Source of the DNA: Bacillota bacterium
GTDB taxonomy: Bacteria; Bacillota; Sulfobacillia; JAJYWN01; JAJZPE01
Length of the DNA stretch: 64,000 bases
Direction: 5' to 3'
NCBI GenBank assembly: GCA_021787335.1
Contig: JAJYMC010000054.1
Location: forward strand, 26,572-90,571
Both the position numbers and the translations under genes were made by a program. Within the stretch, counting starts at the first letter, position 1; every line of letters starts with the position of its first letter. Under the pieces are notes generated by a model that was not told where the DNA came from, searched no databases, and worked only from the letters and a program-made list of their open reading frames with translations. Shown one piece after another: positions 6,873 to 48,500 of this stretch.

Positions 6873-8849
6873 TCACCGCCGGGCTCGGACCGGCGCGTAG
6901 AAATAGCCCTGGGATGGCGTGGCGTCGCCGATGGCCGCGCCCAGCGGCTTCGAGAGGTCGTCCAGCCGTTTCAACTGCGCCGCGGCGGCGGCTTCGCCGG
7001 CCGGACGCGGCTGAGCGTCGACGATGGTAACCGGGACGACGAGGGGGTCGGTGAGGCCGCCGGGCGTCAGCGTGACCATGAAGATGAGGGTCTCGACCTG
7101 CTTCGGTTGGCGCTGGTCGTAGACGTAGTTGCCGAGACTGTAGAGGATGGGGCGCCCGCGATAGAGTTCGATGCCCTGCAGCACGTGGGGGTGCGTGCCG
7201 GCGACGAGGTCGGCACCGGCATCGATGAAGCCGTGGGCCATCGTCCGTTGTGTCGGCAGTGGGAAGTCACTGCCCTCGACGCCCCAGTGAAGATAGACGA
7301 CCACGGCGTCGCTGACCTTCTTGGCCTCTCTCACATCGGCCTCGACCATCGCCTGCCGCAGCGGCGGGGTGCCCGACTGCGTGGCCGTGGCCTCGAAGCT
7401 TCGCGGGTAGTCCAGGCTGAAGTAGAGCGGAGCGAACTCGTTGTACCCGAGGAGGGCCACGCGAAGGCCCTTGGCCTCGATGAAGGCCGGACGGCGGGCG
7501 CGGCCGAGGTCCTCGCCGGCCCCGAAATGGACCACGCCGTTCTGCTGAAGCACATCGAAGGTCTGCAAGAGGGACTCGGTATCGTAGTCGAGGATGTGGT
7601 TGTTGGCCAGGTTGACGGCGTCGATGCCGGCCCCGGTGAGGGCGGGCCCACTCGACGGACGCCCGCGAAGCCAGATCTCCTTGTTCGGCAGCGGGGCACC
7701 TCGGTCGGACAGCGCCGCCTCGAGGTTGGCCACGGTGATGTCCCCGGACTCCAAGATGGCGGCCGTCGGCTGCAGTGGCCAAGCCACGCCGTGTTCGTGA
7801 ATGAGGGTGTCGACTCGCCGTGCCAAGCTGATGTCGCCGACCACGAGGAGGCTTGCCGCCCGCGCCGTTCCCTGGACCGCGGCCTTTTCCTCCGCGGAGG
7901 CCTTCGCCCCATCCCGCGGGTTGGGCCGGCGGGGGAAGCTCAGGGATGCCGGTGAGCCGGGCCAGATCTGATTCAGCGACCGGCTGCCCCGCGCTTCGAA
8001 GGTCACTGTCTGGACCGCGCCGCCCCCGGCCACGTTGAAGGCGAGGACGTCGAGGACAAGCGCCCGGTTGGCCGCGCCGGTGACGCGAGCCAGGTACTCC
8101 GGGGACAAGGTGACCGTCGCCACGGCCCCGTGCCAGGCGGTAAGCTCCGCCTCTCCAGGCTTCGGCAGCAGTTCGAGGACGCTGGTCTGCGCGGCACCCA
8201 TCCCATCCGCCGCCTCGCGCTGGGTCGCCAGGGCCGCGATGATGGCCTGGCCGCGCCGTAGCGGCGTGTCGCCGCCGACGTCCTCCACCCTCTTCCGGGC
8301 GAGGTATACTCGGCTTCCGCTGCGCACGGGGAGGTAGAGGCGTTGCCCGCCCAGGTCCGCCGGGGCGGCCCCCCACGGCCGACCGTCCCTGGTGATGACG
8401 TAGCGGTTAAGGCCCGGCACGGCATCGCGAAGGGTCTCCCCGAGCTGAGCCACCGCCGGCGCGGTCAGATCTCGCCCTTCCAGATCGATCACACCGAAGT
8501 CGTCGCGAAAAGCGACCTTTTTCAAGCTCCATGAGCGGTCCAGGGACGAGGTCAGCCCGGTCTCCGGGGCTGACCCCAGGAGAGCGGCGATGGCCGCATA
8601 GGCCCGCGCCCGCACTGGGGCGCCCGTCAGGCCGATCGGCACCAGCAGATCCGCGGGTACCGTTCCGCCGAATGCCCCGAGCGGGTGGTGATAGACGGTC
8701 ACATCCCCGGCGGCCGCCTCGGCCGATGGGCGATAGTCCAGCGTCGCCAGTCGGGCCGACCGCCACCAGAAGAAGGCCCCGGTGAGGAGCAGGGCCAGGG
8801 CCAGAGCCCCGGCGGTCATGGTCCGTGTCCGGACATCACTCCGACCCAC
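6873..8849 (-). CDS. GerMN-domain / CapA (PgsA)-family metallophosphoesterase fusion protein
   Basis: 658 aa with an N-terminal TM helix. C-terminal half matches CapA (poly-gamma-glutamate synthesis type): ...ANNHILDYD...VVYLHWGVEG...GTHPHVLQGIE... Confidence 0.7.
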   Translation of the reverse strand: MGRSDVRTRTMTAGALALALLLTGAFFWWRSARLATLDYRPSAEAAAGDVTVYHHPLGAFGGTVPADLLVPIGLTGAPVRARAYAAIAALLGSAPETGLTSSLDRSWSLKKVAFRDDFGVIDLEGRDLTAPAVAQLGETLRDAVPGLNRYVITRDGRPWGAAPADLGGQRLYLPVRSGSRVYLARKRVEDVGGDTPLRRGQAIIAALATQREAADGMGAAQTSVLELLPKPGEAELTAWHGAVATVTLSPEYLARVTGAANRALVLDVLAFNVAGGGAVQTVTFEARGSRSLNQIWPGSPASLSFPRRPNPRDGAKASAEEKAAVQGTARAASLLVVGDISLARRVDTLIHEHGVAWPLQPTAAILESGDITVANLEAALSDRGAPLPNKEIWLRGRPSSGPALTGAGIDAVNLANNHILDYDTESLLQTFDVLQQNGVVHFGAGEDLGRARRPAFIEAKGLRVALLGYNEFAPLYFSLDYPRSFEATATQSGTPPLRQAMVEADVREAKKVSDAVVVYLHWGVEGSDFPLPTQRTMAHGFIDAGADLVAGTHPHVLQGIELYRGRPILYSLGNYVYDQRQPKQVETLIFMVTLTPGGLTDPLVVPVTIVDAQPRPAGEAAAAAQLKRLDDLSKPLGAAIGDATPSQGYFYAPVRARR

Positions 8850-8918: not shown

Positions 8919-10388
8919 TCAGTGCGCTGGGTAGTAGTTCAACGGGTTGACCACCTTGCCCTCGACGCGGACCTCGAAGTGCAGGTGCGGCCCGGTGCTG
9001 TTGCCGGTACTCCCGACGTACCCGATGAGCTGTCCCTTCTGAACCGTGCTGCCTTCGCTGAGACCGGCGGCGTAGCCGTTCAGGTGTCCGTAGAGGGTCA
9101 CGAGGTGGCCGCCGCCGTGATCGAGCATGATCGTCTTGCCGTATCGCCCCTTGAGGCCCATGAAGACCACCGTCCCGGAATCGGCCGCGGAGACCTCGGT
9201 GGCGCGCGGGGCGGCCAGGTCGATCCCGGTGTGGTAGTTGAGCCTGCGCCAGCCGAAGCCCGAGGTGAGCTGACCGGAGGGCACCGGCCAGTAGAGGCTT
9301 CCAGTACCGAGGTCAGGGGCCCGCTTGGTGCCGTGGACCTCGATCTGGAGCGTCGGCTCAGACAGGATGTGCTCGCTGACGACGCTCGTGTTCTGCTGGC
9401 GGCTGGAGGTCTGCCGCTCGATGCGGTAGGTGACTTCCTTCTGCCCGCCCACGCCCGGCTGTTTGACCGTGACCTGCCAGGGCCACAGGGTGGGGTCCTC
9501 GATGACCTGGATGGGGAACGGGATCCACTCTTTGACCGTCTTGACCTCGACGCTGACGATGCTGATGTAAGGGGTGGCGGCGATGAGGTTCAGCTTCTGG
9601 CCCGGATTGATGGTCAGGGACTTGGGCAGGTCGGGGTTGGCCTTGACCAGGGTGTCCACGGTCATGCCGTGCTTGTTGGCGATGGTCCACAGGGAGTCGC
9701 CCCTGGAAACGACGTAGGTCTCGATCCTGTCGGTGCCACGGGTCAGGATGCGCTTGGCTTCATCCTTGGTCCGTAGCTTGTCGAGGGGAACGGCGGCTGC
9801 TTCGACGGTCACCTTCTGGACGATCTCCAGGCTGCTCACGGAAGCCCCGCGCTGTTTGATGCGGGCGGCTTCCTCGGCCTTGAGTTCGTCGACGACCGCC
9901 TGGGCCTCGTTCTTATCCAAGAGGCCGACCACGTCCTGCCCCTCGACCCTGATCATGAAGCCATCAACGGCCAGTGGCGACAGGCCGCGGAGGACCTCCC
10001 GCACGGCGGCTTCGTTCTTGAGTTCGGCCAGGGTCGGCTGGCCCTTGGCCGCCGGGTTGGACTGACCGGCGCCGGCCTGAGCCACGCCGGCGGCAGCCGC
10101 GTCTGTATCCGACGTGTAGCGAACCAGGGCGACCTGCCGGCCGAGGCTGACCGGCCGGCCGTACTGCTTGGCCGCCTCATCCTTCAGGGCCGCCAGGGCG
10201 GAGCGGACTACGGCCTTCCCATGGACGACGCCGAGGGCCTGCCCATTGACCTCCAGGACATAGGTGCCCGTGGAGGCCATGACTGAAGAAGCCACCAAGC
10301 CGGCGACGAGCAGGGCCGCCGCGACTGTGCCGATGACCTTGGTCTGTGGTTTCCTGATCAGACTAAGCAGCTTGGTGGTCATGTCCAT
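8919..10388 (-). CDS. LysM-domain M23 family metallopeptidase
   Basis: 489 aa with signal/TM, LysM (YVVSRGDSLWTIANKHGMTVDTLVKANP) and a C-terminal M23 domain (HTGIDLAAP...GSTGNSTGPHLHFEV). Confidence 0.85.
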   Translation of the reverse strand: MDMTTKLLSLIRKPQTKVIGTVAAALLVAGLVASSVMASTGTYVLEVNGQALGVVHGKAVVRSALAALKDEAAKQYGRPVSLGRQVALVRYTSDTDAAAAGVAQAGAGQSNPAAKGQPTLAELKNEAAVREVLRGLSPLAVDGFMIRVEGQDVVGLLDKNEAQAVVDELKAEEAARIKQRGASVSSLEIVQKVTVEAAAVPLDKLRTKDEAKRILTRGTDRIETYVVSRGDSLWTIANKHGMTVDTLVKANPDLPKSLTINPGQKLNLIAATPYISIVSVEVKTVKEWIPFPIQVIEDPTLWPWQVTVKQPGVGGQKEVTYRIERQTSSRQQNTSVVSEHILSEPTLQIEVHGTKRAPDLGTGSLYWPVPSGQLTSGFGWRRLNYHTGIDLAAPRATEVSAADSGTVVFMGLKGRYGKTIMLDHGGGHLVTLYGHLNGYAAGLSEGSTVQKGQLIGYVGSTGNSTGPHLHFEVRVEGKVVNPLNYYPAH

Positions 10389-10712: not shown

Positions 10713-11714
10713 GTGCGGCAACTGAAAACACACGGTAGGCGAAGACTCCTCGTCGTGGCCTTGGCCGCGGTCGTCGCCGTCTCCGGTCTCGCCGTCAGTG
10801 GGACGGCTCTGGCCAGGAGGATCGAACGCGTTGAGGCCACCGAGCTGACCGCCGATGCCGTTGTCGGGTCCGCTCCGACGGTCTCTGGTTCCCAGGCTGC
10901 GTCGACCGCGACGGCACAGCCATCGACCAGTCAGCCGACGCTCGTGACCTACACCATCCAGTCCGGAGACACCATCTGGGACCTGGCGGCCAAGTATGGG
11001 ACCACGGTCGGCTCGATCATCGGTTCCAACGGCTTGTCCGCCTCGGGGCGCATCGGCCCCGGCCAGACCATCAAGATTCCGACCGCCCCCGGTCTCGCCG
11101 TCACCGTCCAGTCCGGCCAGACTCTCTGGGGCTTGGCTCAGAAATACGGGATCAAGGCCGACGACATCGCTAAGGCCAACGGCCGCGACCTCGAAACCCC
11201 CTTGACAGTGGGCGGCTTGCTGTTCCTGCCCGGGGCGAAGGCCGTCGCGACGCCCATCACCGTGGCTTCCCGAGGCACCAGCCGGGGCGGCACGACCGTC
11301 TCGTCAAGTTCCAGCAGTGGCTCGTCCAGCAACTCGTTGCCCAGTGCGTCCGGCTTCATCTGGCCGGTGCATGGGCCCATCACCTCGCCTTTCGGCCCGC
11401 GCAATGGCGGTTTCCACTCCGGCCTCGACATCGGCGTCCCGACGGGCACCGCCGTCCACGCCGCCAAGGCAGGCACGGTCATCGAGGCGGGCTGGGTGAG
11501 CGGATATGGCTACACCGTCATGATCGACCATGGCAACGGGGTGACGACCCTCTACGGCCACAACTCGAAGCTTCTCGTGAAAGAGGGCCAAGAGGTCGCC
11601 CAGGGCGATATCATCGCGTACTCCGGGTCGACCGGTCACTCCACGGGTCCGCACGTCCACTTTGAGATCCGCATCAACGGGCAACCGGTCAACCCGCGTC
11701 CCCGTCTGAGCTGA
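10713..11714 (+). CDS. LysM(x3)-domain M23 family metallopeptidase
   Basis: 333 aa with a signal peptide, three LysM repeats and a C-terminal M23 domain (HSGLDIGVPTG...GSTGHSTGPHVHFEIRING). Confidence 0.85.
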   Translation: MRQLKTHGRRRLLVVALAAVVAVSGLAVSGTALARRIERVEATELTADAVVGSAPTVSGSQAASTATAQPSTSQPTLVTYTIQSGDTIWDLAAKYGTTVGSIIGSNGLSASGRIGPGQTIKIPTAPGLAVTVQSGQTLWGLAQKYGIKADDIAKANGRDLETPLTVGGLLFLPGAKAVATPITVASRGTSRGGTTVSSSSSSGSSSNSLPSASGFIWPVHGPITSPFGPRNGGFHSGLDIGVPTGTAVHAAKAGTVIEAGWVSGYGYTVMIDHGNGVTTLYGHNSKLLVKEGQEVAQGDIIAYSGSTGHSTGPHVHFEIRINGQPVNPRPRLS

Positions 11715-11818
11715 ACGGCGAACAGTCGCGAAGGCTCAGGGCCAAAACATCAAGCCGGCTGGCTCTGCGCCAGCCGGCTTTTCGTCTTCTGAAACACCCG
11801 GTGTCGGCGCCCGCGAGG

Positions 11819-13222
11819 TCAACGCGAAGAGCGGGCCGCCTTCCGGTACTGCAGGTACAGGGCGCACTCGAGCCGCTTCTTCTGCAACCGGCACCCGGCG
11901 GCGTATGGCTTGGCGATATCGCCGTTGATGAGATGGGCGTTGGCGTTGCACCCGCCGCCGCAATGGAACCTGGCCCAGCAGTGACGGCACTCTTCCTTGG
12001 TGAAGACGTTGCCGGAAGCGAAGGTCCGCGGGAGATCGGGCCGATCGACGCCGCGCCAGACGTCACCGAGCTTGAACCCCTCGCGCCCGACGAACTGGTG
12101 ACACGGGAAGAGCTCGCCGTCGGGGGTGACGGCCAGGTACTCATGGCCGGCCCCGCAACCCGTGGCTCGCTTCTTGAGGCAGGGCCCGTTCTGATCCTCC
12201 AGCTCGAAGTGGAAGAAGATCAGCGGCCGACCTTCCTCGAGGCGCTGGAGGTAGTAGGCCGTCAGGCGGTCGTACTCGGCCTCGGCCCGGGCGAGGTCAT
12301 TGGGGCCGAGGGAGTAGTCGTCGCCCTCCAGTCCGACGACCGGTTCGAGGGACAGCCGGTCGAAGCCGAGGTCGGCCAGATGCCGGACGTCCTCGGTGAA
12401 GTCAAGGTTGCGATTGGTGTAGGTGCCGCGAAGGTAGTAGTCCTGGCCTCCTCGCGAGGCGACCGCCCGCCGGGCACCGTCCAGAACGGCCTCGTAACTC
12501 CCCCGCCCGTTGCGCATCGGGCGCATCGCGTCGTGGACCGCCGGCCGCCCGTCGAGGCTTAGGACCAGGGCGACCTTATGGGCGTTGAGGAAGGCGATGA
12601 CCTCGTCCGTGAGGGGGGTGGCGTTGGTGGTCAGGGTGAAGCGGAAGGCCTTGCCGCTCTCCGCGGCCCGCCGTTCCGCGTAGGGGACGACGTCGAAGAG
12701 GACGTCGCGATCGAGCAACGGCTCACCGCCGAAGAAGTCGATCTCCAGTTGGCGGCGGTCACCTGAGGCGGCGATGAGGAAGTCGATGGCCCGCCTGGCC
12801 GTGTCGGCCGGCATCAGGCGGCGTTCTCCGCCGAACGGCCCCTGGCCGGCGAAGCAGTATCGACAGGCCAGGTTGCAGTCGTGGGCGAGGTTCAGGCAGA
12901 GGGCGTGGACGATCGGGGCGCCGGGCGGAGTCAGGGTGGCCATCTCCTCGGCGGCCGGGCCGGGAGACCACAGCCTGCCCTCCCGCGCCAATCCTTCGAG
13001 TTCGCCCCAGGCCGCCCGAACGGCCTCGGCCCCGTGACGGCCGGCCAACCGGTCGCCCGCGGCGGCCGCGTCGACCAGGCCCGCCTCGTCGAGGCCGATG
13101 ATGTCCCAGGCGACCTCGTCGGCCACGTGGAGCGCTCCGCTGTTCACATCGAGGACCAGCCGCTCGCCCTGGCACTGGAAGCGGTGGACCTGGTCCCTGT
13201 TCTGGTTATCGTGACGGCTCAT
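11819..13222 (-). CDS. scfB: radical SAM/SPASM thioether-forming SCIFF peptide maturase
   Basis: 467 aa. CxxxCxxC (CNLACRYC) plus a Cys-rich SPASM C-terminus (CHQFVG...CRHCWARFHCGGGCNANA). Lies immediately downstream of the SCIFF precursor. GGAGG RBS. Confidence 0.85.
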   Translation of the reverse strand: MSRHDNQNRDQVHRFQCQGERLVLDVNSGALHVADEVAWDIIGLDEAGLVDAAAAGDRLAGRHGAEAVRAAWGELEGLAREGRLWSPGPAAEEMATLTPPGAPIVHALCLNLAHDCNLACRYCFAGQGPFGGERRLMPADTARRAIDFLIAASGDRRQLEIDFFGGEPLLDRDVLFDVVPYAERRAAESGKAFRFTLTTNATPLTDEVIAFLNAHKVALVLSLDGRPAVHDAMRPMRNGRGSYEAVLDGARRAVASRGGQDYYLRGTYTNRNLDFTEDVRHLADLGFDRLSLEPVVGLEGDDYSLGPNDLARAEAEYDRLTAYYLQRLEEGRPLIFFHFELEDQNGPCLKKRATGCGAGHEYLAVTPDGELFPCHQFVGREGFKLGDVWRGVDRPDLPRTFASGNVFTKEECRHCWARFHCGGGCNANAHLINGDIAKPYAAGCRLQKKRLECALYLQYRKAARSSR

Positions 13223-13268
13223 GACAGGCCTCCGAGGCTCACGCGGCGCGCGCCGAAGAGGCGCCGCC

Positions 13269-13312
13269 GGTGACCGAAATGAAGAAGCCCGTCCCGCGAG
13301 CGGACGGGCCCC
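13269..13312 (-). terminator. intrinsic terminator/attenuator between SCIFF precursor and maturase
   Basis: GCCCGTCC/GGACGGGC 8-bp stem followed by TTCTTCATTTCGG on the minus strand. Confidence 0.5.
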
Positions 13313-13330
13313 GTAAACGGCTTTTCGGGC

Positions 13331-13492
13331 TCAGCGAGGGCAGACCTGGTTGCCGACGGTGCAAGAGGTCTTGCAGGCCGACTGGCAAGAGGTCTGGCAG
13401 GACGAGCAGCGTTCGTCCGGGGTCACCCGCTTGAACGGGTCGACGACGGTCTTGATGTGCTTCCCGGCCTCATGCTTCTTGGGCTCGGACAT
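13331..13492 (-). CDS. scfA: SCIFF (six cysteines in forty-five residues) ranthipeptide precursor, 53 aa
   Basis: Manual translation gives MSEPKKHEAGKHIKTVVDPFKRVTPDERCSSCQTSCQSACKTSCTVGNQVCPR with the SCIFF core signature CQTSCQSACKTSCTVGNQ. GGGAGG RBS and TGA stop. Below the ORF-track size cutoff. Confidence 0.85.
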   Translation of the reverse strand: MSEPKKHEAGKHIKTVVDPFKRVTPDERCSSCQTSCQSACKTSCTVGNQVCPR

Positions 13493-13537
13493 GAGTCTTT
13501 TCCTCCCTCGTCAAGTCCTGGATACGATGCCTTATGC

Positions 13538-13546
13538 ATTATAGCA
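13538..13546 (-). promoter_or_regulatory. extended -10 promoter (TGCTATAAT) for the SCIFF precursor, inside the 3' end of the AOR gene
   Basis: Minus-strand TGCTATAAT lies 45 nt upstream of the scfA ATG. Confidence 0.5.
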
Positions 13547-15473
13547 CAAGGCCCTCCTGAGCGTCCACTCTATGCCTTCGCGGGTGTGCCTTCGCGGGAG
13601 CGAGGCACGACGCCACGTCCGACAGGCCGAGTCTTTCGACCTCGGATGGATCAGGCTGTCCGGACTCGTCCAGCTGCATCAGTGAATAGTATTCGGCGAG
13701 CTGTCGCTCAATGTCTGGGACGAGGCCGGCCGCCGGTCCGTCGGGCAAGGGCTCGCGGAAACGCGCCGGGATACGGTCATCCGCCCGGGTCATCCCGAAG
13801 GCGCCGTTGATGAGCCGCTTGAGGGTCCAGATGCGGCGGCCCGTGGTCAGGAACTCCTCAACGCTGTGGTCGAAGCCGGTCGCGGCGTTGAGGGCGGCGA
13901 CCGCCTCTTCCCCGGTGACGATCGACCCGCCCGCGTAGCATAGGGCCAGAGCGCCACCAAGGGCCTGCCCGGCGTCCTGGGCCCGGGCATGCAGGGCGGC
14001 CTTGCCGTCGCTGGTCTGGGCCGAGTCGGGCGGCTCGACCCCGAGGTCGGGGATGTAGGCCATCCCCAGCTCAGCGTAAAAGGTCAACCCGGAGAGGTGC
14101 GAGGCCCCGCGGTCGGAGGTGGCGTACTGCAGGGCCAGGCCGTGCATGGCACGCGGGTCGTGATAGGGCACCTCGACACCCTTGACGGTCATCAGGAACT
14201 CGTCGGCGCCGGGACCGAGGGTCGCCGCGAAGCGCTGGGAGCCCTCGCCGAGAAGTTTGCCGAACCCTTCCCGCCGGGCGATGCGCTGGGTCAGGGCCAC
14301 CGCGGCGCCGGCGTCACCCCAGTTGAGTTCGAGCCCGTCGGTGTCGGCCGGCCCGATGAGGCCCCTTTCATAGGCCTCGAAGGCGTAGGCCAGGGTGCCT
14401 CCGCAGCTGATGGTGTCGAGCCCCTGGCGGTTGCAGATGTCGTTCATCCGGGCCACGGCCCGCGGATTGTCCACCCTGAGACCGGTCCCGAAGGCGGCCA
14501 CGGTCTCATACTCAGGGCCGGGGCCCTGCTCCACGCGGTAGGGCTGATCGTCCACGCGGACGACCCGCTTGCAGCTGACCGGGCAGCCGAAGCAGGTCCT
14601 GCGCCCGGTCAGGATGGTCGCGTTATAGTTGTTGCCCCCGAGGGCCTGCAGGCCTTCCTCCCAGAGCCCTTCGCGCCAATTCTTGGTCGGCATGTCCCCG
14701 ACCATCAGGCTCAGTTCGATGGAAGAGATCGTCCCGACCTCGCGGTAGGTCTGGAGGGTGAGGCTCTCTTTGCCACGTTCGATGAGCTCGCGGCGGAGGC
14801 GGTCGATGGTCGCGCGGTCGGCCAGGGGCACTTCCTGGCGGCCCCGGACGACGACGGCCTTCAGCCTCTTGCTCCCCATGACGGCGCCAAGGCCGCCGCG
14901 CCCGGCGACGTGAGCTCGGTCATGGACGATCGAGGCGAAGCGGACCAACCGCTCGCCGGCCGGCCCGATGGCCAGCACCCGCCAACCATCGGGACTGAAG
15001 CGGGCATGGACCTCATAGGTGTCGAGCCCCCACAGGTCGGAGGCGTCACGAAGCTCAGCGCGGCCGTCATCGATGGCCAGATAGACTGGGCGCTCGGAGG
15101 CCCCGGTGACGACTATCCCATCGTACCCGGCAAACTTGAGGTGCGGTCCGAAGAACCCGCCGACGCTGGATTCACCCCAGATCCCGCTGAGCGGGGAGCG
15201 GGCGACGACGTTGAAGCGTGACGCTGACGGGAACGGGGTCCCGGCCAGCGGCCCGGTCATGATGATGAGTTCATTGTCCGGCCCGAGCGGGTCCGGCCGC
15301 GCCGGTCCGCCATCGGCCGGTCTGACGGCTTCGGCGAAGTACCTGGCGGCCAGACCGCTGCCACCGATGTACCGCCGGAGCCAGTCTTGATCGAGCGGCA
15401 GGTCCTCGAGGCGACCGGCGCTCAGGTCGACCCGCAGGAGACGGCCCATGTAGCCGGTGGCCACGGCCGTCAC
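13539..15473 (-). CDS. tungsten-containing aldehyde:ferredoxin oxidoreductase (AOR family)
   Basis: 644 aa with full-length AOR homology (N-terminal MGRLLRVDLS...YIGGSGLAARY). Confidence 0.9.
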   Translation of the reverse strand: MTAVATGYMGRLLRVDLSAGRLEDLPLDQDWLRRYIGGSGLAARYFAEAVRPADGGPARPDPLGPDNELIIMTGPLAGTPFPSASRFNVVARSPLSGIWGESSVGGFFGPHLKFAGYDGIVVTGASERPVYLAIDDGRAELRDASDLWGLDTYEVHARFSPDGWRVLAIGPAGERLVRFASIVHDRAHVAGRGGLGAVMGSKRLKAVVVRGRQEVPLADRATIDRLRRELIERGKESLTLQTYREVGTISSIELSLMVGDMPTKNWREGLWEEGLQALGGNNYNATILTGRRTCFGCPVSCKRVVRVDDQPYRVEQGPGPEYETVAAFGTGLRVDNPRAVARMNDICNRQGLDTISCGGTLAYAFEAYERGLIGPADTDGLELNWGDAGAAVALTQRIARREGFGKLLGEGSQRFAATLGPGADEFLMTVKGVEVPYHDPRAMHGLALQYATSDRGASHLSGLTFYAELGMAYIPDLGVEPPDSAQTSDGKAALHARAQDAGQALGGALALCYAGGSIVTGEEAVAALNAATGFDHSVEEFLTTGRRIWTLKRLINGAFGMTRADDRIPARFREPLPDGPAAGLVPDIERQLAEYYSLMQLDESGQPDPSEVERLGLSDVASCLAPAKAHPRRHRVDAQEGLVL

Positions 15474-15476
15474 CCC

Positions 15477-15914
15477 TTACTGGGTGAGATCGGCCCGGCC
15501 GATCTCCTTCAGGTATTGCGGGTACAGTTCAAAGGCCGGCTTGATGACCGGGATGAGCTTGATGATGCTCTGGATGGGACCGACCGCCTTCATCTGCCCC
15601 TTGGCGAGGGCGGCCACCAGGTTCACCTTGCCCAGCCAGAACTGGTGGGCGACGTCGGCCTTCATCGACATCACGACGTCCGGCTTGAAGTTGATGTCGC
15701 CCTCGTAGATGGTGTAAGGCTCCCCTGGGGGCGGGTTCTTGGCGTCGACGGTGATGGCGCTGTCGGGGTCGCTGTAGTTGAAACGGACCGAGATCTTTGA
15801 GTCACTGACCTTCTGCGCCAGGGGCTCGGTCAGGGCCCGCCGGAAGAGACCGCCGATGCACAGGTAGACTTCGGAAGCATCCTTGAAGACCGCCATTCTC
15901 CTGTTACCTCCCAT
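15477..15914 (-). CDS. SCP2 sterol-binding domain protein
   Basis: 145 aa SCP-2-like fold signature, translationally close to AOR. Confidence 0.65.
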   Translation of the reverse strand: MGGNRRMAVFKDASEVYLCIGGLFRRALTEPLAQKVSDSKISVRFNYSDPDSAITVDAKNPPPGEPYTIYEGDINFKPDVVMSMKADVAHQFWLGKVNLVAALAKGQMKAVGPIQSIIKLIPVIKPAFELYPQYLKEIGRADLTQ

Positions 15915-20663: not shown

Positions 20664-21503
20664 TTATCGGCTACGTACGACCCGCCCTCCCAGCTCGCGC
20701 TCGGCCACGAGGCACAGGCTCTCGTACCGGGCCCGGTCGAACGCCGGCAGCCGGGCGAGTTCCGTCTTGACCCCGTTCGGCCGGAAGGGGATGAGCCGGA
20801 GGCGGGTGCGCCCGTCAAGCCCCTTCACCAGCCTGGCGATGGCGGTTATCTCCGCCTCGTCGTCGGTAAAGCCTTCGACGATGACCGTGCGGACCTCGTG
20901 GAGGTGCCCCTCCCGCGAGGTCCGGGCGATGTTCTCGAGGATCACCCGGTTGTCGGCCCCCGTCAGCTGGGTGTGCTTGTCCGCGTCGAGGGCCTTGAGG
21001 TCGAACATGAAGCCGTCGGTCACCGGCAGGAGGGTCTCAAGGGCCTCCTGGCTCATCTGGCCGTTGGTGTCGATGAAGGTGGTCAGGGACGTGTCCGCCT
21101 TGACCCGTCGGAAGAGTTCGGCCACGAACTCGTGCTGCAGGGTGCACTCCCCGCCGGAGACGGTCACGCCGTCGAGGAAGTCTTGGAGCTCCAGCAGCCG
21201 CGCGTGGACCTCGTTGACGTCGACCAGCCGGTACTTGGGCGAAGAGAAGTGCGGGCAGACTTTGAGACAGGTGTCGCAGCTGCGGCAACGCCCCGGGTCA
21301 TGGACGACGCGGCCGTCGACCAGGCTCAGGGCCCCGGCCGGGCAGGTGGCCACGCACTCGCCGCAGTCGACGCACACCCGCTGGGTCTCCGGGTTATGGC
21401 AATAGTTGCAGGCCAGGTTGCAGCCTTGCAGAAAGACCACAAGGCGGTTGCCCGGCCCGTCGATCAGGGAATGCTCGATTATCCTATTGACCGTCGCCTT
21501 CAC
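20664..21503 (-). CDS. yjjW: glycyl-radical enzyme activating protein (YjjW-like, extra 4Fe-4S clusters)
   Basis: GPGNRLVVFLQGCNLACNYCHNPE radical-SAM site plus two ferredoxin-like Cys clusters. The track ORF extends to 21578. The probable start is GTG at 21503, giving a short overlap with the upstream gene. Confidence 0.75.
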   Translation of the reverse strand: MKATVNRIIEHSLIDGPGNRLVVFLQGCNLACNYCHNPETQRVCVDCGECVATCPAGALSLVDGRVVHDPGRCRSCDTCLKVCPHFSSPKYRLVDVNEVHARLLELQDFLDGVTVSGGECTLQHEFVAELFRRVKADTSLTTFIDTNGQMSQEALETLLPVTDGFMFDLKALDADKHTQLTGADNRVILENIARTSREGHLHEVRTVIVEGFTDDEAEITAIARLVKGLDGRTRLRLIPFRPNGVKTELARLPAFDRARYESLCLVAERELGGRVVRSR

Positions 21504-22998
21504 GGACAGCCCTGACCCTTCTCTCCAGGGTCCGGTTGTTCTTGATGCTGTCGGCGCCGAGCTTGACGGTGCCCTCACGGACCGGCTCCCCGCGGAAGTA
21601 ACGGTCGACCTCGCACCGCTTGACGAGGTAGCCGGTGATGCGGATGAGCTCTGAGTCGGAGGTGTTCAGGGCCATGATCCGCATCCCGTTCTTCATCGCC
21701 CCCCGGACGATGCGGAGCACCCCGTCGGGGTTGTCGCGGGCGTTGGCCTCGAAGATGTAGATGTCATTGACTCCCGTATCAAAGTGGCGTTGCAGCGCGC
21801 TCTGCAGCCTGATCTGGTCGTAGAGGGCGGGCTCGTCGCCGATGCGGGAGCGGACGCCGGCCGTGACATCGACGTCGGTGTCGATGCCCGATTGGGCGTG
21901 CACGCCGAGCAGGCCGCCAAAGACCTTGCCGTAAGCCGTCTTGTGCATCTTGACGAGGTCGTGAGCCCGGCCCATGATGGCCAGGGCCATCTCGTCGGCC
22001 CCCTTGTCGTGGCCCATCCGGCGCCCGCCGGAAAAGGCCTGGACCCCTTCATAGAGCCCGAAGAAGCCGGCCATGGCGGTGAACTTGCGCCGGTCGATCA
22101 GGCCCTCCTGGGCCAGGAAGGACGACTCGAAGAAGCCGGCCTCTTCAACAATGAAGCGGATGCGGGCGTTGATCAGCTCGGCCTGAGCGTCGACGACCTC
22201 GGGGAGCACGTCGGCCATGAACTGATCGTAGTCCCGCGCCCCGCGGGCGGCTTCCTTGAGGTTCAGCCGGACCAGGGTGAAGCTGCCGCCCCCGATCTTC
22301 AGGGAGTTGTAGCAGCTGGCGATGCCGTAGTCGTCGCCGCCGAAGACGCGGCGGAGTTCCGCATGGTTGACGAAGTAGGGCTTGGAGGTGTCGAGGGCCG
22401 TGGTCACGGCCAACCGGGCGAATTCAGGCGGCGTCTCTTCGCTGAATTTCAGGGACAGGTTGGGCACGGCCTTTTTCAGTTCGCCCTCCAGTTTGAGGAC
22501 GAGCCGGCCGACGGCGGTCGCCCGGGGGCCGATGTTCATGTGGACGAAGGCGTCCGGCAACGTCCGGTCGATGTTCACCAGGAACATCCGGAGCAACCGC
22601 TCGGCCTCGGCCGGGCTGACCGTGTCGATGAAACCTTCGAGGACGTCGTCGATCTGGCCGAGGTAGACCGGGTAGCCGGTGACTGAGGGGACATTCCGGT
22701 AGAGGATGAGCAGCGCGTTGACCGCCTCGTAGAGGTCGCGGGGGGCGGGCAGGTCCAGGTGCCGGCTGCCCTGGCGGATGAACTTGACGTAATCCGGTAG
22801 GATGTAGCGCGGGCGATAGGGCGCGTGCCCCTCGCCGAGGTCGTGGAGCACCCCACTGTCCATCAGTTCCTGGACGCGCCGGCCGACCTGCAGGTAGGGC
22901 AACGAGTTCTCGGCGGCCGCGGCCAGTTCGTGCCGCTTCTGAGGGTATGTCAGGCGACGGTCTTTGACCAGTTCGATGACCTTGTCCACCCAAGCCAC
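21484..22998 (-). CDS. yjjI: YjjI-family (DUF3029) putative glycyl radical enzyme
   Basis: 504 aa with a C-terminal glycyl-radical-like motif RITGY. Located immediately upstream of its activase. Confidence 0.65.
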   Translation of the reverse strand: MAWVDKVIELVKDRRLTYPQKRHELAAAAENSLPYLQVGRRVQELMDSGVLHDLGEGHAPYRPRYILPDYVKFIRQGSRHLDLPAPRDLYEAVNALLILYRNVPSVTGYPVYLGQIDDVLEGFIDTVSPAEAERLLRMFLVNIDRTLPDAFVHMNIGPRATAVGRLVLKLEGELKKAVPNLSLKFSEETPPEFARLAVTTALDTSKPYFVNHAELRRVFGGDDYGIASCYNSLKIGGGSFTLVRLNLKEAARGARDYDQFMADVLPEVVDAQAELINARIRFIVEEAGFFESSFLAQEGLIDRRKFTAMAGFFGLYEGVQAFSGGRRMGHDKGADEMALAIMGRAHDLVKMHKTAYGKVFGGLLGVHAQSGIDTDVDVTAGVRSRIGDEPALYDQIRLQSALQRHFDTGVNDIYIFEANARDNPDGVLRIVRGAMKNGMRIMALNTSDSELIRITGYLVKRCEVDRYFRGEPVREGTVKLGADSIKNNRTLERRVRAVREGDGQ

Positions 22999-45566: not shown

Positions 45567-48500
45567 TCAGGCCCTGGAGAGCGGCGCTCGACTGGCTTTT
45601 TCCTGTTTGAGGCGGTACATGCGCTCATCCGCTCGGGCCACCAACTCGGCCGGTCGAGTGCCGTCCTCAGGATAGACGGCGATACCGACGGTGACCCCGG
45701 GCAGGTTGAACTGATGCCCTTGCACCGTGATGCTGCGGCTGGAGATGCCGGCGGACAGCCGGTCGGCCGCCTGTCGTGCTTCTGCCGTCCCGGCGGCGGG
45801 CATGATGATCCCGAATTCGTCGCCACCGTAACGGGCGATGGTGTCAGTCGGGCGATAGTTTCGAGTGACGACGGCCGCCAGTTCGACCAGGGCCCGGTCA
45901 CCGGCCAGGTGCCCGTAAACGTCGTTGACCAGCTTCAGGCTGTCCACATCGAGAAGGACGACCGCCAGTAAGGCTGATTCGCGGCGGGCCCGTTCGAGTT
46001 CCTCTTCCAGGCGGCGGTAGAAATGCGAATGGTTGTAGGTGCCGGTGAGTCCGTCGTGCGTCGCGGCGTGGGCGACCTGTTCGTGGTACCTGGCCACCTC
46101 GATGGCGATAGAGATCTGGCCGGCGACCGCGCTCAGGAGATACAGGTCATCCCTGGAGAAGGCGTTCAGCTGGTCGGATTCGATGTCCAGGACACCGATG
46201 GTGCGACCTTCGACGACGAGTGGGACGGCCAGGGCGGAACGGGCACGGATGTTCGGTCCCCAGTGATATCGGGCATCGGTCCTGACATCCCCGACGACCT
46301 GGGGCAGCCCGTGCTCGGCCACCCAGCCGGTGATGCCGACGCCCTTCTGGACCCGGAGTTCCGGCCCCTCGAGCGGAAGGCCCACGCAGGCCTTGACGAT
46401 GAGGTCCCCGGTGTCCGGTTCGGTCAGCAGGAGGGTGTAGACGTTGGGTCCCATGGCGTCGTAGAGGATGGTAAGGATCCGGTGCATGAGGTGGGACAGG
46501 TTAAGGAGAGAGCGGGTCTCGAGGGAGATCTGATAGAGGATCCCGAGTTCCTTCCCGTGGACGGGGAGGATGCGGCCGATGGCCGCCCCGGCGTGGTCCT
46601 CGGTCAGGTCCGGGGCCTCTTCGTGGGTCCTCTTCGCGAGGGCGATGTATGCCGGATCCCGGGCTTCTTTCAGCCTGCGGAGGTGGGCCGAGAAGGCCTC
46701 GACGACGACCGGGTCGAATTGCGTGCCGCTGCCGGCCAGGAGGCGGTTGAGGGCTTCTTCAGGGGTCAGCCCCAGACGATAGGGCCGGTCCGTGGTCATG
46801 GCATCGAAGGCATCGGCGACGGCCAACACCCTGGCCCCCAACGGGATGGCCGGACCGCTCAGGCCGTCGGGATACCCCCCGCCGGCGAACCATTCGTGGT
46901 GGTGCTTGACCAGGGGGACGATTTCCCGGAAGGCGGCGACCTGCTGCAGGATGTTGGCGCCCTTGGTCGGGTGCTCCATCATCTGGGCCCTCTCGAGCGG
47001 ATCGAGGATGCCCTTCTTCCTGAGGATGCCGTCGTCAAGGCCGATCTTCCCGATGTCGTGGAGGAGTCCGGCGTATTCGATGGTCGCCAGATCCTCGGCC
47101 GGAAGGTCTATCTGATGGGCGATCATCAGGGCGTATCGAGCCACCCGGGTGGAGTGGGCCCTGGTGTGATGGTCGCGGGCGTCGACGGCTTCGGCCAGCG
47201 TCTTCACGGCCGATAGGTAGAGTTCACGTTCGCGTCGGAAGACGTTGGCGTTGTGAATGGCGATGGCCAGTTGGCGGGCCAGGATGTCGATGGCCGTGAC
47301 CTCGTCAGGTGTGAAGACGCCGGGCTTCGTCGAATTCAGGTCGAGCACGCCCAGGACTTCTTGGCCGACGACCAGCGGAAGGCACATGCGTGCCTTCGCC
47401 GGGAGCTTCTGCCCGGCGACCTCGGCCTGGCCGGTCGCCCCCTCGGAGACCAGCGGTTTGGCGTTACGGACGGCCCATCCGGTGAGACCAAGGTTGACGC
47501 TCTGCCGATAGCCGTCGGGAACGAGGTCGGCCAGGTTCCCGGCCTTGGCTTCCAGGTGGATCTCCTCGGCCTCTTTGTCGAAGAGGAACAGCCCGGCATA
47601 GTCGTAACCCAGCTCGTTAGCCAGAAAAGCGACGACCTCCTGAAGGAGGACCGGGAGGTCAAGGATGGCTGTGAGATGGTGGCTGGCCCGGCTGATCGCC
47701 GTCAGTTGGCTGACCTTGCGTTCGAGCTTGCCCCGCAGCTTGGCTTCCTGGATCGCCGTGGCGATCTGGCCGGCCAACCCCTTGATTATCTGCTCATGCT
47801 TGGCGGTCAGGCGGGTCCCCGACTGGCACGAGATGATCAGGACTCCAAGGTTCTCCCCACCGCTCTTGAGGGGACTGACGGCCACGAGGCCAGGACCCAG
47901 CGGGGCGAGGAGGTCTTTGAACCTATGCTGGCCGGGGTCTGGGATGATGGTTAGGTCGGCCGAGTTTATCAGGTTGAGTACATCGCCGTCGATGGGTAGC
48001 CGATCCATCGCTGTCGGTCCGGCAGGCAGGCCGGGCCTCTCCCTGAAGGCCAGGCTGGAGAAGCGTCCGTCCGGCTCGGGCAAGTGAATCTGGAAGTCCT
48101 GGTGCTCCAGCACCCGGGCAAGGCAGGTGGCGGCCACGGAGTAAACTTCCTGGAGGTCGGCCCGCCGGGCGACCGCCCTGGCCACTTCAAGCAGGGCCGT
48201 TGAGGTGTCGGCCTCCTCGCGCACCTTCTCATACAGCCGGGAGTTCTCGATGGACCCGGCCAACTGCGCGGCTACCCGACCGATGAAGTCCGTTTCCTCG
48301 AAGCTGAACTCGGGCCCCGGCATCCGGGAAAGGTTCAGAGTGCCTAGAGCGCGGCCGTTGAACTCGATGTCGGCGGTAGTCCGGGTGGCCTTGACGGCGC
48401 CCCAAGGACCGCCGAAGGCGGCTTCGACGGCCTGGTCTTCGGAGTCCGGGTGGCTGGGAATGCGGAGCCGTCGGAGTTCCCAGTCACCATTACCGCCGGT

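What the first reader, a model, noticed from the sequence alone, without database searches (positions are those of the whole stretch)
13331..13492. Hidden 53-aa SCIFF ranthipeptide precursor missed by the ORF track
Reading the minus strand from ATG at 13492 to TGA at 13331 gives MSEPKKHEAGKHIKTVVDPFKRVTPDERCSSCQTSCQSACKTSCTVGNQVCPR. The C-terminal half carries six Cys in the spacing typical of SCIFF peptides (C-x2-C-x3-C-x3-C-x3-C-x6-C), and the core CQTSCQSACKTSCTVGNQ is almost invariant in that family. A GGGAGG RBS lies upstream, and the next gene downstream (11819-13222) is a radical SAM/SPASM enzyme of the SCIFF-maturase type. The peptide is shorter than the 60-aa ORF cutoff, so it is invisible in the supplied track. 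SCIFF is a known family, but its function and mature structure in vivo remain uncharacterised.
Basis: partly seen in the sequence, partly recalled or inferred. Interest (0 to 1): 0.75.

Follow-up and report, generated by a model that had tools for sequence, protein, structure and literature searches.

The report
Ordinary, already-annotated SCIFF peptide operon
The short gene is real and encodes the six-cysteine precursor peptide SCIFF next to its radical-SAM modifying enzyme, but this pair is a well-known, widespread family and this exact peptide already carries that name in GenBank, so the finding is correct but ordinary.

Summary
Window 13492..13331 (-) is a 53-codon ORF with exactly the reported translation. 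It passes the curated cut-offs of TIGR03973 (63.7 bits, cut-off 50) and Pfam SCIFF (65.3 bits, cut-off 27). The gene 108 nt downstream (13222..11819, -) passes TIGR03974, the SCIFF maturase ScfB model (547 bits, cut-off 425). It aligns end to end with the crystallised CteB and keeps all ten Fe-S ligand cysteines.

The peptide is not really hidden. Only the 60-aa cut-off of the supplied ORF track misses it. Public gene callers call this exact sequence on at least 10 contigs, and NCBI names it "six-cysteine ranthipeptide SCIFF [Bacillota bacterium]".

What I add:
- A conserved promoter, RBS and leaky-terminator hairpin frame scfA.
- The peptide belongs to a small divergent clade with a 10-aa N-terminal extension, a ...DERCxxC junction and a ...NQVCPR end.
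- The operon does not sit in the usual TIGR04086-scfAB-secDF setting. It lies next to LysM/G5/M23 peptidoglycan peptidases, as in every non-secDF locus I examined (Syntrophothermus, Thermincola, Desulfofundulus and others).

Inferred mechanism: ScfB binds the leader and makes a radical Cys40-to-Thr thioether. The physiological role is still unresolved. Interest is low and the status is already known.

The parts
13538..13567 (-). Sigma-70-type promoter-like site of scfA: -35 TGGACG (13567-13562), 18-nt spacer, extended -10 TGcTATAAT (13546-13538). The stop codon of the upstream AFOR gene (13541-13539) lies inside the -10 hexamer.
   Evidence: 10 of 12 matches plus the TG, and the only promoter-like site in 11500-14000 (shuffles give 0.2). 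GTGGACG and TGTGCTATAAT are conserved in the diverged orthologous loci L087/L088 and L090 while flanking sequence varies. They are kept in L087 even though two other genes lie between AFOR and scfA there. Transcription itself was not tested.
13502..13507 (-). Ribosome-binding site GGGAGG, 9 nt upstream of the scfA ATG
   Evidence: sequence. It is invariant in the orthologues of alignment A1, including L090, where the start codon is GTG.
13331..13492 (-). scfA: 53-aa SCIFF precursor peptide including the stop codon. Inferred leader is residues 1-26 (13492-13415), with a 10-aa N-terminal extension before the KHIKT motif. Inferred core is residues 27-53 (13414-13334), with Cys29/32/36/40/44/51.
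   Evidence: TIGR03973 63.7 bits, PF13165 65.3 bits. (NCBI name). (GC3 0.89; synonymous-only change in the core outside residues 30-31). The leader/core boundary is inferred by alignment with CteA (PMC6231123).
13274..13312 (-). Terminator-like hairpin (stem GCCCGTCC/GGACGGGC, 7-nt loop) followed by the T-rich tail TTCATTTCGG in the 108-nt scfA-scfB spacer. Inferred to be a leaky terminator that sets a high peptide:enzyme transcript ratio.
   Evidence: 11 pairs, 8 of them G-C; the stem and tail are invariant and the loop is variable in L087, L088 and L090; a hairpin plus T tail occurs in the same spacer in 37 of 78 other species (36 distinct sequences), against 2.9 expected from shuffles and 3 in the upstream control. 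Against: the whole-spacer fold is not a thermodynamic outlier (z = -1.31), and no compensatory changes were seen.
13229..13233 (-). RBS GGAGG, 6 nt upstream of the scfB ATG
   Evidence: sequence. CGGAGG is conserved in L087/L088.
11819..13222 (-). scfB: 467-aa radical SAM/SPASM thioether-forming SCIFF maturase. RS cluster ligands C116/C120/C123, Aux I ligands C356/C374/C425, Aux II ligands C412/C415/C421/C444.
   Evidence: TIGR03974 547 bits, cut-off 425; NF040492 'not_ScfB' 468 bits, below its 855 cut-off. (CteB 5wgg, E = 4e-141, residues 11-459 aligned to 6-450). (all ten CteB ligand cysteines conserved).
11752..11780 (.). Bidirectional intrinsic-terminator-like hairpin (12 pairs) ending the scfAB unit and the convergent LysM-M23 gene

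Best explanation
This is a bona fide two-gene scfA-scfB (SCIFF ranthipeptide) operon in the chromosome of an uncultured, about 65% G+C Bacillota bacterium.

Shown here:
- A 53-aa precursor and a 467-aa radical SAM/SPASM maturase both meet the curated family models.
- The precursor has its own conserved promoter and RBS.
- A conserved hairpin with a T-rich tail separates the two genes.

Inferred from the characterised homologues CteA/CteB and Tte1186a/Tte1186:
- Transcription starts near 13531.
- Most transcripts stop at the hairpin and some read through into scfB, giving excess peptide over enzyme.
- The N-terminal RRE domain of ScfB binds the leader (the KHIKTVV...RVTPD region) as an added beta-strand.
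- The RS cluster cleaves SAM, and the 5'-deoxyadenosyl radical abstracts an H atom from a Thr side chain. The candidates are Thr45 or Thr42, equivalent to CteA Thr37 and Thr34.
- The thiol of Cys40 (the 4th Cys, equivalent to CteA Cys32), probably held on the open iron of Aux I, forms a non-alpha (C-gamma) thioether.

The fate of the other five Cys, leader removal, export and the physiological role are not established for any SCIFF. A signalling or regulatory role has been proposed.
For: ORF and translation. HMM membership above curated cut-offs for both genes. Identical sequences already named SCIFF and SCIFF maturase by NCBI and IMG. The ORF is called by gene callers on at least 10 contigs with the same neighbours. 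ScfB aligns over its full length with CteB (E = 4e-141), and all ten cluster-ligand Cys are conserved. Purifying selection: core changes are synonymous apart from residues 30-31, and GC3 is 0.89. Promoter, RBS and hairpin are conserved in diverged orthologues. A hairpin plus T tail recurs in the scfA-scfB spacer of 37 of 78 other species, against 2.9 expected. A SCIFF gene lies upstream of the ScfB homologue in 78 of 80 genomes from other species. Chemistry of the homologues: PMC8326336, PMC6231123, PMC10177961.
Against: There are no expression, mass-spectrometry or genetic data for this locus or this organism. The cross-link position is transferred from homologues for which the literature itself disagrees (Thr37 versus Thr34, PMC8326336). 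The leader is unusually divergent: a 10-aa N-terminal extension, a one-residue deletion, and PDER in place of KKGG before Cys1. Leader recognition could therefore differ in detail. The hairpin's T tail is weak (TTCATTT), its stem shows no compensatory changes, and the spacer fold is not an energetic outlier. The attenuator role is plausible but unproven.
Confidence: 0.93

Rival explanations
1. The radical SAM gene is one of the ScfB-related 'orphan' maturases (NCBIfam NF040492, 'not_ScfB') that act on something other than SCIFF, and the small ORF is incidental.
For: NF040492 is the second-best hit of the 467-aa protein (468 bits).
Against: 468 bits is far below that model's cut-off of 855, while TIGR03974 passes (547 bits against 425). 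A peptide passing the SCIFF equivalog model lies 108 nt upstream on the same strand and is conserved with it.
Confidence: 0.01
2. It is a different thioether system of the same enzyme superfamily: PapB/freyrasin-type (six Cys-Asp C-beta links), QhpD-type (quinohemoprotein amine dehydrogenase maturation) or a true sactipeptide (C-alpha links).
For: The enzyme also hits QhpD (275 bits) and PapB (265 bits). Six Cys could in principle give several rings.
Against: Both scores are below their cut-offs (453 and 340). The peptide has no CX3D repeats, and its only Asp residues are in the leader. No QhpA/QhpC-like neighbours are present. Published work reclassified SCIFFs away from sactipeptides (PMC8326336).
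Confidence: 0.03
3. In this clade SCIFF is part of a larger cell-wall-linked module. The conserved neighbouring LysM/G5/M23 peptidase, and the PGA_cap/Germane protein beyond it, process the peptide or are regulated by it, so the locus works differently from the classical secDF-linked SCIFF.
For: A LysM-G5-M23 gene follows scfB in every non-secDF lineage examined: the window clade, L092, L001-3, L006, L095, L096 and L097. In L092, L095 and L097 it is co-directional and 3-110 nt away. The PGA_cap protein shows weak family-level similarity to the lasso-peptide epimerase MslH.
Against: In the window a convergent gene and a bidirectional terminator separate scfB from these genes. The whole region (purA, Peptidase_MA_2, FAD protein) is syntenic in L095 and L096, so linkage may only reflect conserved chromosome order. 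M23/LysM/G5 proteins are ordinary peptidoglycan hydrolases. The MslH score is 100 bits against a cut-off of 700.
Confidence: 0.05
4. The ORF is a chance open frame in GC-rich DNA and is not translated.
For: High-GC DNA carries many spurious ORFs. Two antisense frames across the same stretch are also open.
Against: HMM E-values are 1e-17 to 1e-18. GC3 is 0.89 in this frame. Substitutions in the core are synonymous, the RBS is conserved, and the start is conserved as ATG or GTG. The peptide is present upstream of ScfB in 78 of 80 other species.
Confidence: 0.005

Closest known systems
CteA/CteB (thermocellin system) of Clostridium thermocellum; CteB structures 5WGG/5WHY
   Same: ScfB aligns with CteB over residues 11-459 against 6-450 with E = 4e-141. 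The RS motif CX3CX2C and the three Aux I plus four Aux II cysteines are all conserved. The peptide core from Cys2 to Cys6 is essentially the canonical SCIFF core, including the cross-linking Cys (4th Cys) and both candidate acceptor Thr residues.
   Different: The enzymes are roughly half identical across the aligned region. The peptide has a 10-aa N-terminal extension and a one-residue shorter spacer between KHIKT and Cys1. It has PDER instead of KKGG before Cys1, SS instead of GE between Cys1 and Cys2, and ends in CPR instead of CE(N/K)K. The genomic context differs (no TIGR04086 protein or secDF).
Tte1186a/Tte1186 of Caldanaerobacter subterraneus
   Same: It belongs to the same SCIFF/ScfB family. 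One Cys32-Thr37 thioether was shown in vitro, and it has three [4Fe-4S] clusters with the same ligand pattern as CteB (PMC8326336, PMC10177961).
   Different: I did not compare it directly here. The differences in leader and context are as described for CteA.
SCIFFs of uncultured Bacillota P0017 and P0018 (...VDERCxxCQSSC...NQVCPR)
   Same: These are the nearest relatives outside the window's own 90% cluster. They share the DERC junction and the NQVCPR end. P0017 also has LysM-M23, LysM-G5-M23 and PGA_cap/Germane neighbours.
   Different: They are only 68-72% identical over about 80% of the peptide, scoring 61-63 bits against 114 for self. Their N-termini differ, their core reads CQSSC instead of CQTSC, and the LysM-M23 gene lies upstream and divergent rather than downstream and convergent.
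PapA/PapB (freyrasin) and QhpD
   Same: They are homologous radical SAM/SPASM thioether-forming enzymes with the same cluster architecture (PMC10177961).
   Different: They form Cys-Asp or Cys-Glu links on different substrates (CX3D repeats, or the QhpC subunit). Their scores are below the family cut-offs, and the peptide lacks those motifs.

Membership tests
SCIFF precursor (TIGR03973 / PF13165) | Score above the curated cut-off of the family HMMs | tested here: met
   TIGR03973 63.7 bits against 50. PF13165 65.3 bits against 27. Residues 11-51/52 cover the whole profile.
SCIFF precursor (TIGR03973 / PF13165) | Six Cys in the C-terminal half with spacing C-x2-C-x3-C-x3-C-x3-C-x6-C and the core CQ(T/A)SCQSACKTSCTV(G/A)NQ | tested here: met
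   Cys at residues 29, 32, 36, 40, 44 and 51. The core is identical to the consensus of 78 other species.
SCIFF precursor (TIGR03973 / PF13165) | About 45 residues with the N-terminal leader motif (M)KHIKT | tested here: met
   KHIKT is present at residues 11-15. The total length is 53 aa because of a 10-aa N-terminal extension, which is conserved in the clade and has no alternative start codon. Other SCIFFs with extensions exist.
SCIFF precursor (TIGR03973 / PF13165) | Encoded immediately upstream of, and co-directional with, an ScfB maturase | tested here: met
   A 108-nt spacer on the same strand. The same arrangement is found in 78 of 80 other species.
SCIFF precursor (TIGR03973 / PF13165) | Occurrence in Clostridia and related Bacillota | tested here: met
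   NCBI labels the source MAGs 'Bacillota bacterium'. The nearest ScfB sequences are from Thermincola, Desulfofundulus and Desulfovirgula. Class-level placement was not determined.
SCIFF precursor (TIGR03973 / PF13165) | Usual (not defining) neighbourhood: TIGR04086 membrane protein upstream and secDF downstream | tested here: not met
   57 of 80 loci have secDF and 30 have TIGR04086. The window has AFOR upstream and LysM/M23 genes downstream. This is a contextual feature, not part of the family definition.
ScfB maturase (TIGR03974) | Score above the curated cut-off and not captured by the exception model NF040492 | tested here: met
   547 bits against 425. NF040492 scores 468 bits against 855.
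ScfB maturase (TIGR03974) | CX3CX2C radical SAM motif plus seven SPASM cysteines (three for Aux I, leaving an open site, and four for Aux II) | tested here: met
   C116/120/123, C356/374/425 and C412/415/421/444 align with CteB C104/108/111, C344/362/413 and C400/403/409/432.
ScfB maturase (TIGR03974) | N-terminal RRE (leader-binding) domain | tested here: inconclusive
   The N-terminal 100 residues align with the RRE region of CteB in the full-length HMMER alignment. No structure prediction or RRE-specific profile was run.
Ranthipeptide (radical non-alpha thioether peptide) | Thioether from Cys sulfur to a C-beta or C-gamma of the acceptor residue, installed by the rSAM enzyme | not testable with these tools
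   This needs MS/MS and NMR of the modified peptide. It is known only for homologues (PMC8326336).
Sactipeptide | Cys sulfur to C-alpha thioether (sactionine) | not testable with these tools
   The literature reports that SCIFF products lack sactionine-type fragmentation (PMC8326336). Not tested here.

The most novel reading that the evidence does not exclude
The window's SCIFF belongs to a small, previously undiscussed clade with an N-terminally extended leader, a DERCxxC junction and a CPR end. With other non-Clostridiales Bacillota, this clade keeps scfAB beside LysM/G5/M23 peptidoglycan peptidases (and here a PGA_cap/Germane protein) rather than beside secDF. If that linkage is functional, SCIFF could be a cell-wall or sporulation-linked signal whose leader is removed by the M23 peptidase. 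That would give the long-unknown role of SCIFF a testable handle.
Probability: 0.06. Interest if true: 0.5.

Novelty: already known. Interest (0 to 1): 0.12.

Why it matters
It matters little as a discovery. SCIFF/ScfB is a curated, structurally characterised RiPP family found in well over a thousand sequence clusters (1732 at E <= 0.001), and these exact sequences are already annotated.

The practical lesson is methodological: a 60-aa ORF cut-off hides RiPP precursors, so small-ORF-aware calling is needed.

Three minor points have value. The divergent leader paired with a roughly 50%-identical maturase is a natural variant for studying RRE-leader recognition. The recurring hairpin between scfA and scfB supports a general stoichiometry-setting attenuator in SCIFF operons. 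The split between secDF-linked and M23-linked contexts may help future work on the function of SCIFF.

Tried and rejected
1. I first thought the window peptide broke an invariant 'G-C-G-E-C' motif, because it differed from 78 of 78 neighbours of ScfB homologues. I rejected this. The wider protein search shows the two residues between Cys1 and Cys2 vary freely across the family (GE 65, RE 18, GT, GK, SS, VN and others). Within the window's own cluster they are SS, AS or VN. The 78-locus sample was dominated by gut Clostridia.

2. The genome-contig scan with ScfB did not return the source genome. The organism could therefore not be placed below 'Bacillota'. I chose not to spend another whole-database protein search on taxonomy because it would not change the verdict.

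3. Folding the whole scfA-scfB spacer gave no significant energy excess (z = -1.31). The attenuator claim rests on the pattern scan and on conservation and recurrence, not on thermodynamics.

4. An Rfam scan of the whole window found only two tRNAs. There is no known RNA element near scfA.

5. I considered M23 peptidases as leader proteases, because the canonical SCIFF leader ends in Gly-Gly. The window peptide has Glu-Arg there, and a convergent gene and a terminator intervene. I kept this only as a low-probability lead.

6. The PGA_cap neighbour's hit to the lasso-peptide epimerase MslH is 100 bits against a cut-off of 700. That is family-level similarity only.

7. I checked the antisense ORFs 13270-13434 (+) and 13350-13544 (+). 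They are shadow frames of GC-rich coding DNA and have no support.

Full report
**1. The observation**

Reading the minus strand from 13492 gives ATG...TGA (stop at 13333-13331). The translation is MSEPKKHEAGKHIKTVVDPFKRVTPDERCSSCQTSCQSACKTSCTVGNQVCPR, exactly as reported. The mechanical ORF list holds it as 13331..13492 (-), 53 aa, and 13492 is the first start codon after the preceding in-frame stop. GGGAGG lies at 13507-13502, 9 nt before the ATG. The six cysteines (residues 29, 32, 36, 40, 44, 51) have the stated spacing. The next minus-strand gene is 13222..11819 (467 aa), preceded by GGAGG 6 nt upstream.

**2. Family tests**

- The peptide scores 63.7 bits (E = 1.1e-17) against TIGR03973 'six-cysteine ranthipeptide SCIFF' (equivalog, cut-off 50).
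- It scores 65.3 bits against Pfam PF13165 (cut-off 27). Residues 11-51/52 cover the whole profile.
- The 467-aa protein scores 547 bits against TIGR03974 'thioether cross-link-forming SCIFF peptide maturase' (cut-off 425).
- The look-alike exception model NF040492 ('ScfB-related orphan maturase') reaches only 468 bits against a cut-off of 855.
- QhpD, PapB and all other rSAM/SPASM maturase models are well below their cut-offs.

The only solved relative by sequence is CteB (5WGG/5WHY), with E = 4e-141, aligned over residues 11-459 of the query and 6-450 of the chain. I used the published ligand list for CteB: RS C104/C108/C111, Aux I C344/C362/C413, Aux II C400/C403/C409/C432 (PMC10177961). 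Allowing for the +3 chain offset, all ten ligands are conserved here as C116/C120/C123, C356/C374/C425 and C412/C415/C421/C444.

**3. It is not hidden in public data**

Gene callers have called the exact 53-aa sequence on at least 10 public contigs, with a precomputed Pfam SCIFF hit and the same neighbours. The cluster look-up shows that NCBI names it 'MAG: six-cysteine ranthipeptide SCIFF [Bacillota bacterium]' (MHB0885873.1 and others). IMG names it 'predicted ribosomally synthesized six-cysteine peptide SCIFF'. The 467-aa protein is named 'thioether cross-link-forming SCIFF peptide maturase'. The peptide is therefore invisible only to an ORF track with a 60-aa floor.

**4. Evidence that it is a functional gene**

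- GC content by codon position is 0.48, 0.54 and 0.89, the pattern of a real gene in a 65% G+C genome.
- Against the orthologues in L087 (peptide P0002) and L090 (P0004), the core (residues 29-53) has 3-7 synonymous codon changes. Its only non-synonymous changes are at residues 30-31.
- The leader changes mainly in the N-terminal extension, while KH(I/V)(K/R)TVV.PFKRVTPDERC is kept.
- The start is ATG in most loci and GTG in L090, at the same position behind the same RBS.

**5. Anatomy of the operon**

A promoter-like site lies at 13567-13538. It reads TGGACG, an 18-nt spacer, then TGcTATAAT, with 10 of 12 matches plus the extended -10 TG. It is the only such site between 11500 and 14000, and shuffles give 0.2. 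The stop codon of the upstream aldehyde:ferredoxin oxidoreductase gene lies inside the -10 hexamer. In alignment A1 the GTGGACG and TGTGCTATAAT blocks, the short 5' UTR and the RBS are conserved in L087/L088 and L090 while surrounding sequence diverges. In L087 two unrelated genes separate AFOR from scfA, yet the promoter stays with scfA.

In the 108-nt spacer there is a hairpin at 13312-13284, with stem GCCCGTCC/GGACGGGC, a 7-nt loop and then the tail TTCATTTCGG. The stem and tail are invariant and the loop varies among the orthologues. There are no compensatory changes, and the whole-spacer fold is not an energetic outlier (z = -1.31).

Across 78 other species, a hairpin with a T-rich tail occurs in the scfA-scfB spacer in 37, as 36 distinct sequences. 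Shuffles predict 2.9, and an equal-length stretch upstream of scfA gives 3 (with the window clade included, 49 of 92 against 3.6). I read this as a leaky terminator that gives more peptide than enzyme transcript, as is common for RiPP precursors. This is inference, not shown.

A 12-bp bidirectional terminator-like hairpin at 11752-11780 closes the unit.

**6. How this SCIFF compares with others**

SCIFF genes were found upstream of the ScfB homologue in 78 of 80 genomes of other species. Aligned with them, the window peptide has the consensus core from Cys2 onward. It differs in five ways:
- a 10-residue N-terminal extension;
- a one-residue deletion in the leader;
- PDER instead of KKGG before Cys1;
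- SS instead of GE between Cys1 and Cys2;
- CPR instead of CE(N/K)K at the end.

This looked like a break of an invariant GCGEC motif, but the whole-database search corrected that. There are 1732 clusters at E <= 0.001. Among the 120 closest, the two inter-Cys residues are GE (65), RE (18), GT, GK, GQ, SS, VN and others.

The window peptide's 90% cluster has five members (SS, AS or VN at residues 30-31). The next relatives are P0017 and P0018, which share ...VDERCxxC...NQVCPR but score only 61-63 bits against 114 for self. It is therefore a divergent but unremarkable branch of the family. N-terminal extensions also occur elsewhere (P0018, P0035, P0075).

**7. Genomic context**

The window is ordinary chromosomal DNA of origin-proximal Firmicutes type: atpB, murA-like, purA, dnaB, rplI, ssb-rpsR, motAB.

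Upstream of scfA lie AFOR, a 139-145-aa unknown protein, an Fe-ADH and a Zn-ADH. Downstream lie a convergent LysM-M23 peptidase, then a LysM-G5-M23 peptidase and a PGA_cap protein on the scfAB strand.

In the 80 reference loci, 57 have secDF immediately downstream, 30 have the TIGR04086 membrane protein upstream, and some have tgt. That is the classical SCIFF setting. The window lacks all of these.

A LysM-G5-M23 gene follows scfB in the window clade, in L092, in the four closest GTDB ScfB loci (Thermincola, Desulfofundulus, Desulfovirgula, UBA2595), and in three further lineages sampled on purpose (Syntrophothermus L095, L096, L097). L095 and L096 also share purA, the FAD protein or Peptidase_MA_2 with the window. 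The linkage may therefore be conserved chromosome order rather than function. In the window a convergent gene and a terminator intervene. I record it as a lead with low probability.

**8. Mechanism (inferred from homologues)**

In CteB the leader of CteA adds a beta-strand to the RRE domain, and a substrate Cys binds the open iron of Aux I (PMC6231123). Tte1186 and CteB make one thioether from the fourth Cys (Cys32) to Thr37 in vitro. In E. coli the link was reported to Thr34 at C-gamma, and this discrepancy is unresolved (PMC8326336). Selenocysteine work supports direct binding of the cross-linking residue to Aux I (PMC10177961).

By alignment, the equivalents here are Cys40, Thr45 and Thr42, and the leader/core boundary falls after Asp26.

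Knock-outs in Clostridium beijerinckii changed expression of sporulation and agr genes, which led to a quorum-sensing proposal (PMC8102284; Chen et al. 2020, as cited there). The native mature product, the leader protease, the exporter and the receptor are unknown for every SCIFF. None is evident here.

**9. Verdict**

The finding is a textbook, already-annotated member of a known RiPP family. Its only peculiarities are a divergent, extended leader and a non-classical but recurrent neighbourhood. Novelty: already known. Interest: low.

Noticed in passing
window 8919-10388 (-), 10713-11714 (+), 6873-8849 (-); L092, L095, L096, L097, L001-L003, L006: SCIFF operons fall into two context types. 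57 of 80 reference loci have secDF downstream, often with the TIGR04086 membrane protein upstream. The window clade and every non-secDF lineage examined (Syntrophothermus, Thermincola, Desulfofundulus, Desulfovirgula and uncultured Bacillota) have a LysM-G5-M23 peptidase downstream instead. In the window and L092 a PGA_cap/Germane protein follows it. This could be functional linkage or only conserved chromosome order.
   Followed up: partly
scfA-scfB spacers of L001-L080: A hairpin with a T-rich tail lies between the precursor and maturase genes in 37 of 78 species, as 36 different sequences. Shuffles predict 2.9, and an upstream control gives 3. This suggests a general attenuator in SCIFF operons.
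   Followed up: partly
window 13539-13541 and 13538-13543: The stop codon of the aldehyde:ferredoxin oxidoreductase gene (13539-15473, -) lies inside the -10 hexamer TATAAT of the scfA promoter-like site. The two genes are only 46 nt apart, so read-through from AFOR into scfA is also possible.
   Followed up: no
window 6873-8849 (-): A 658-aa PGA_cap (CapA-like) protein has weak similarity (100 bits, cut-off 700) to the lasso-peptide C-terminal Trp epimerase MslH. This is probably only family-level resemblance.
   Followed up: no
window 21484-22998 (-): A YjjI-like glycyl radical enzyme (PF11230, 617 bits). The adjacent ORFs, a possible activase among them, were not examined.
   Followed up: no
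window 45567-50081 (-): A 1504-aa signalling protein with a PAS domain, four GAF domains, an HD(-GYP-type) domain and a GGDEF domain lies just downstream of ssb-rpsR.
   Followed up: no
window 15477-15914 (-): A 139-145-aa ORF between Fe-ADH and AFOR has no Pfam or NCBIfam hit. It is conserved in the same position in L081-L091.
   Followed up: no
L097 5001-5162 and 5090-6571: In this public MAG the called ScfB gene overlaps the SCIFF gene by about 70 nt. This is probably an over-extended start call in the deposited annotation.
   Followed up: no
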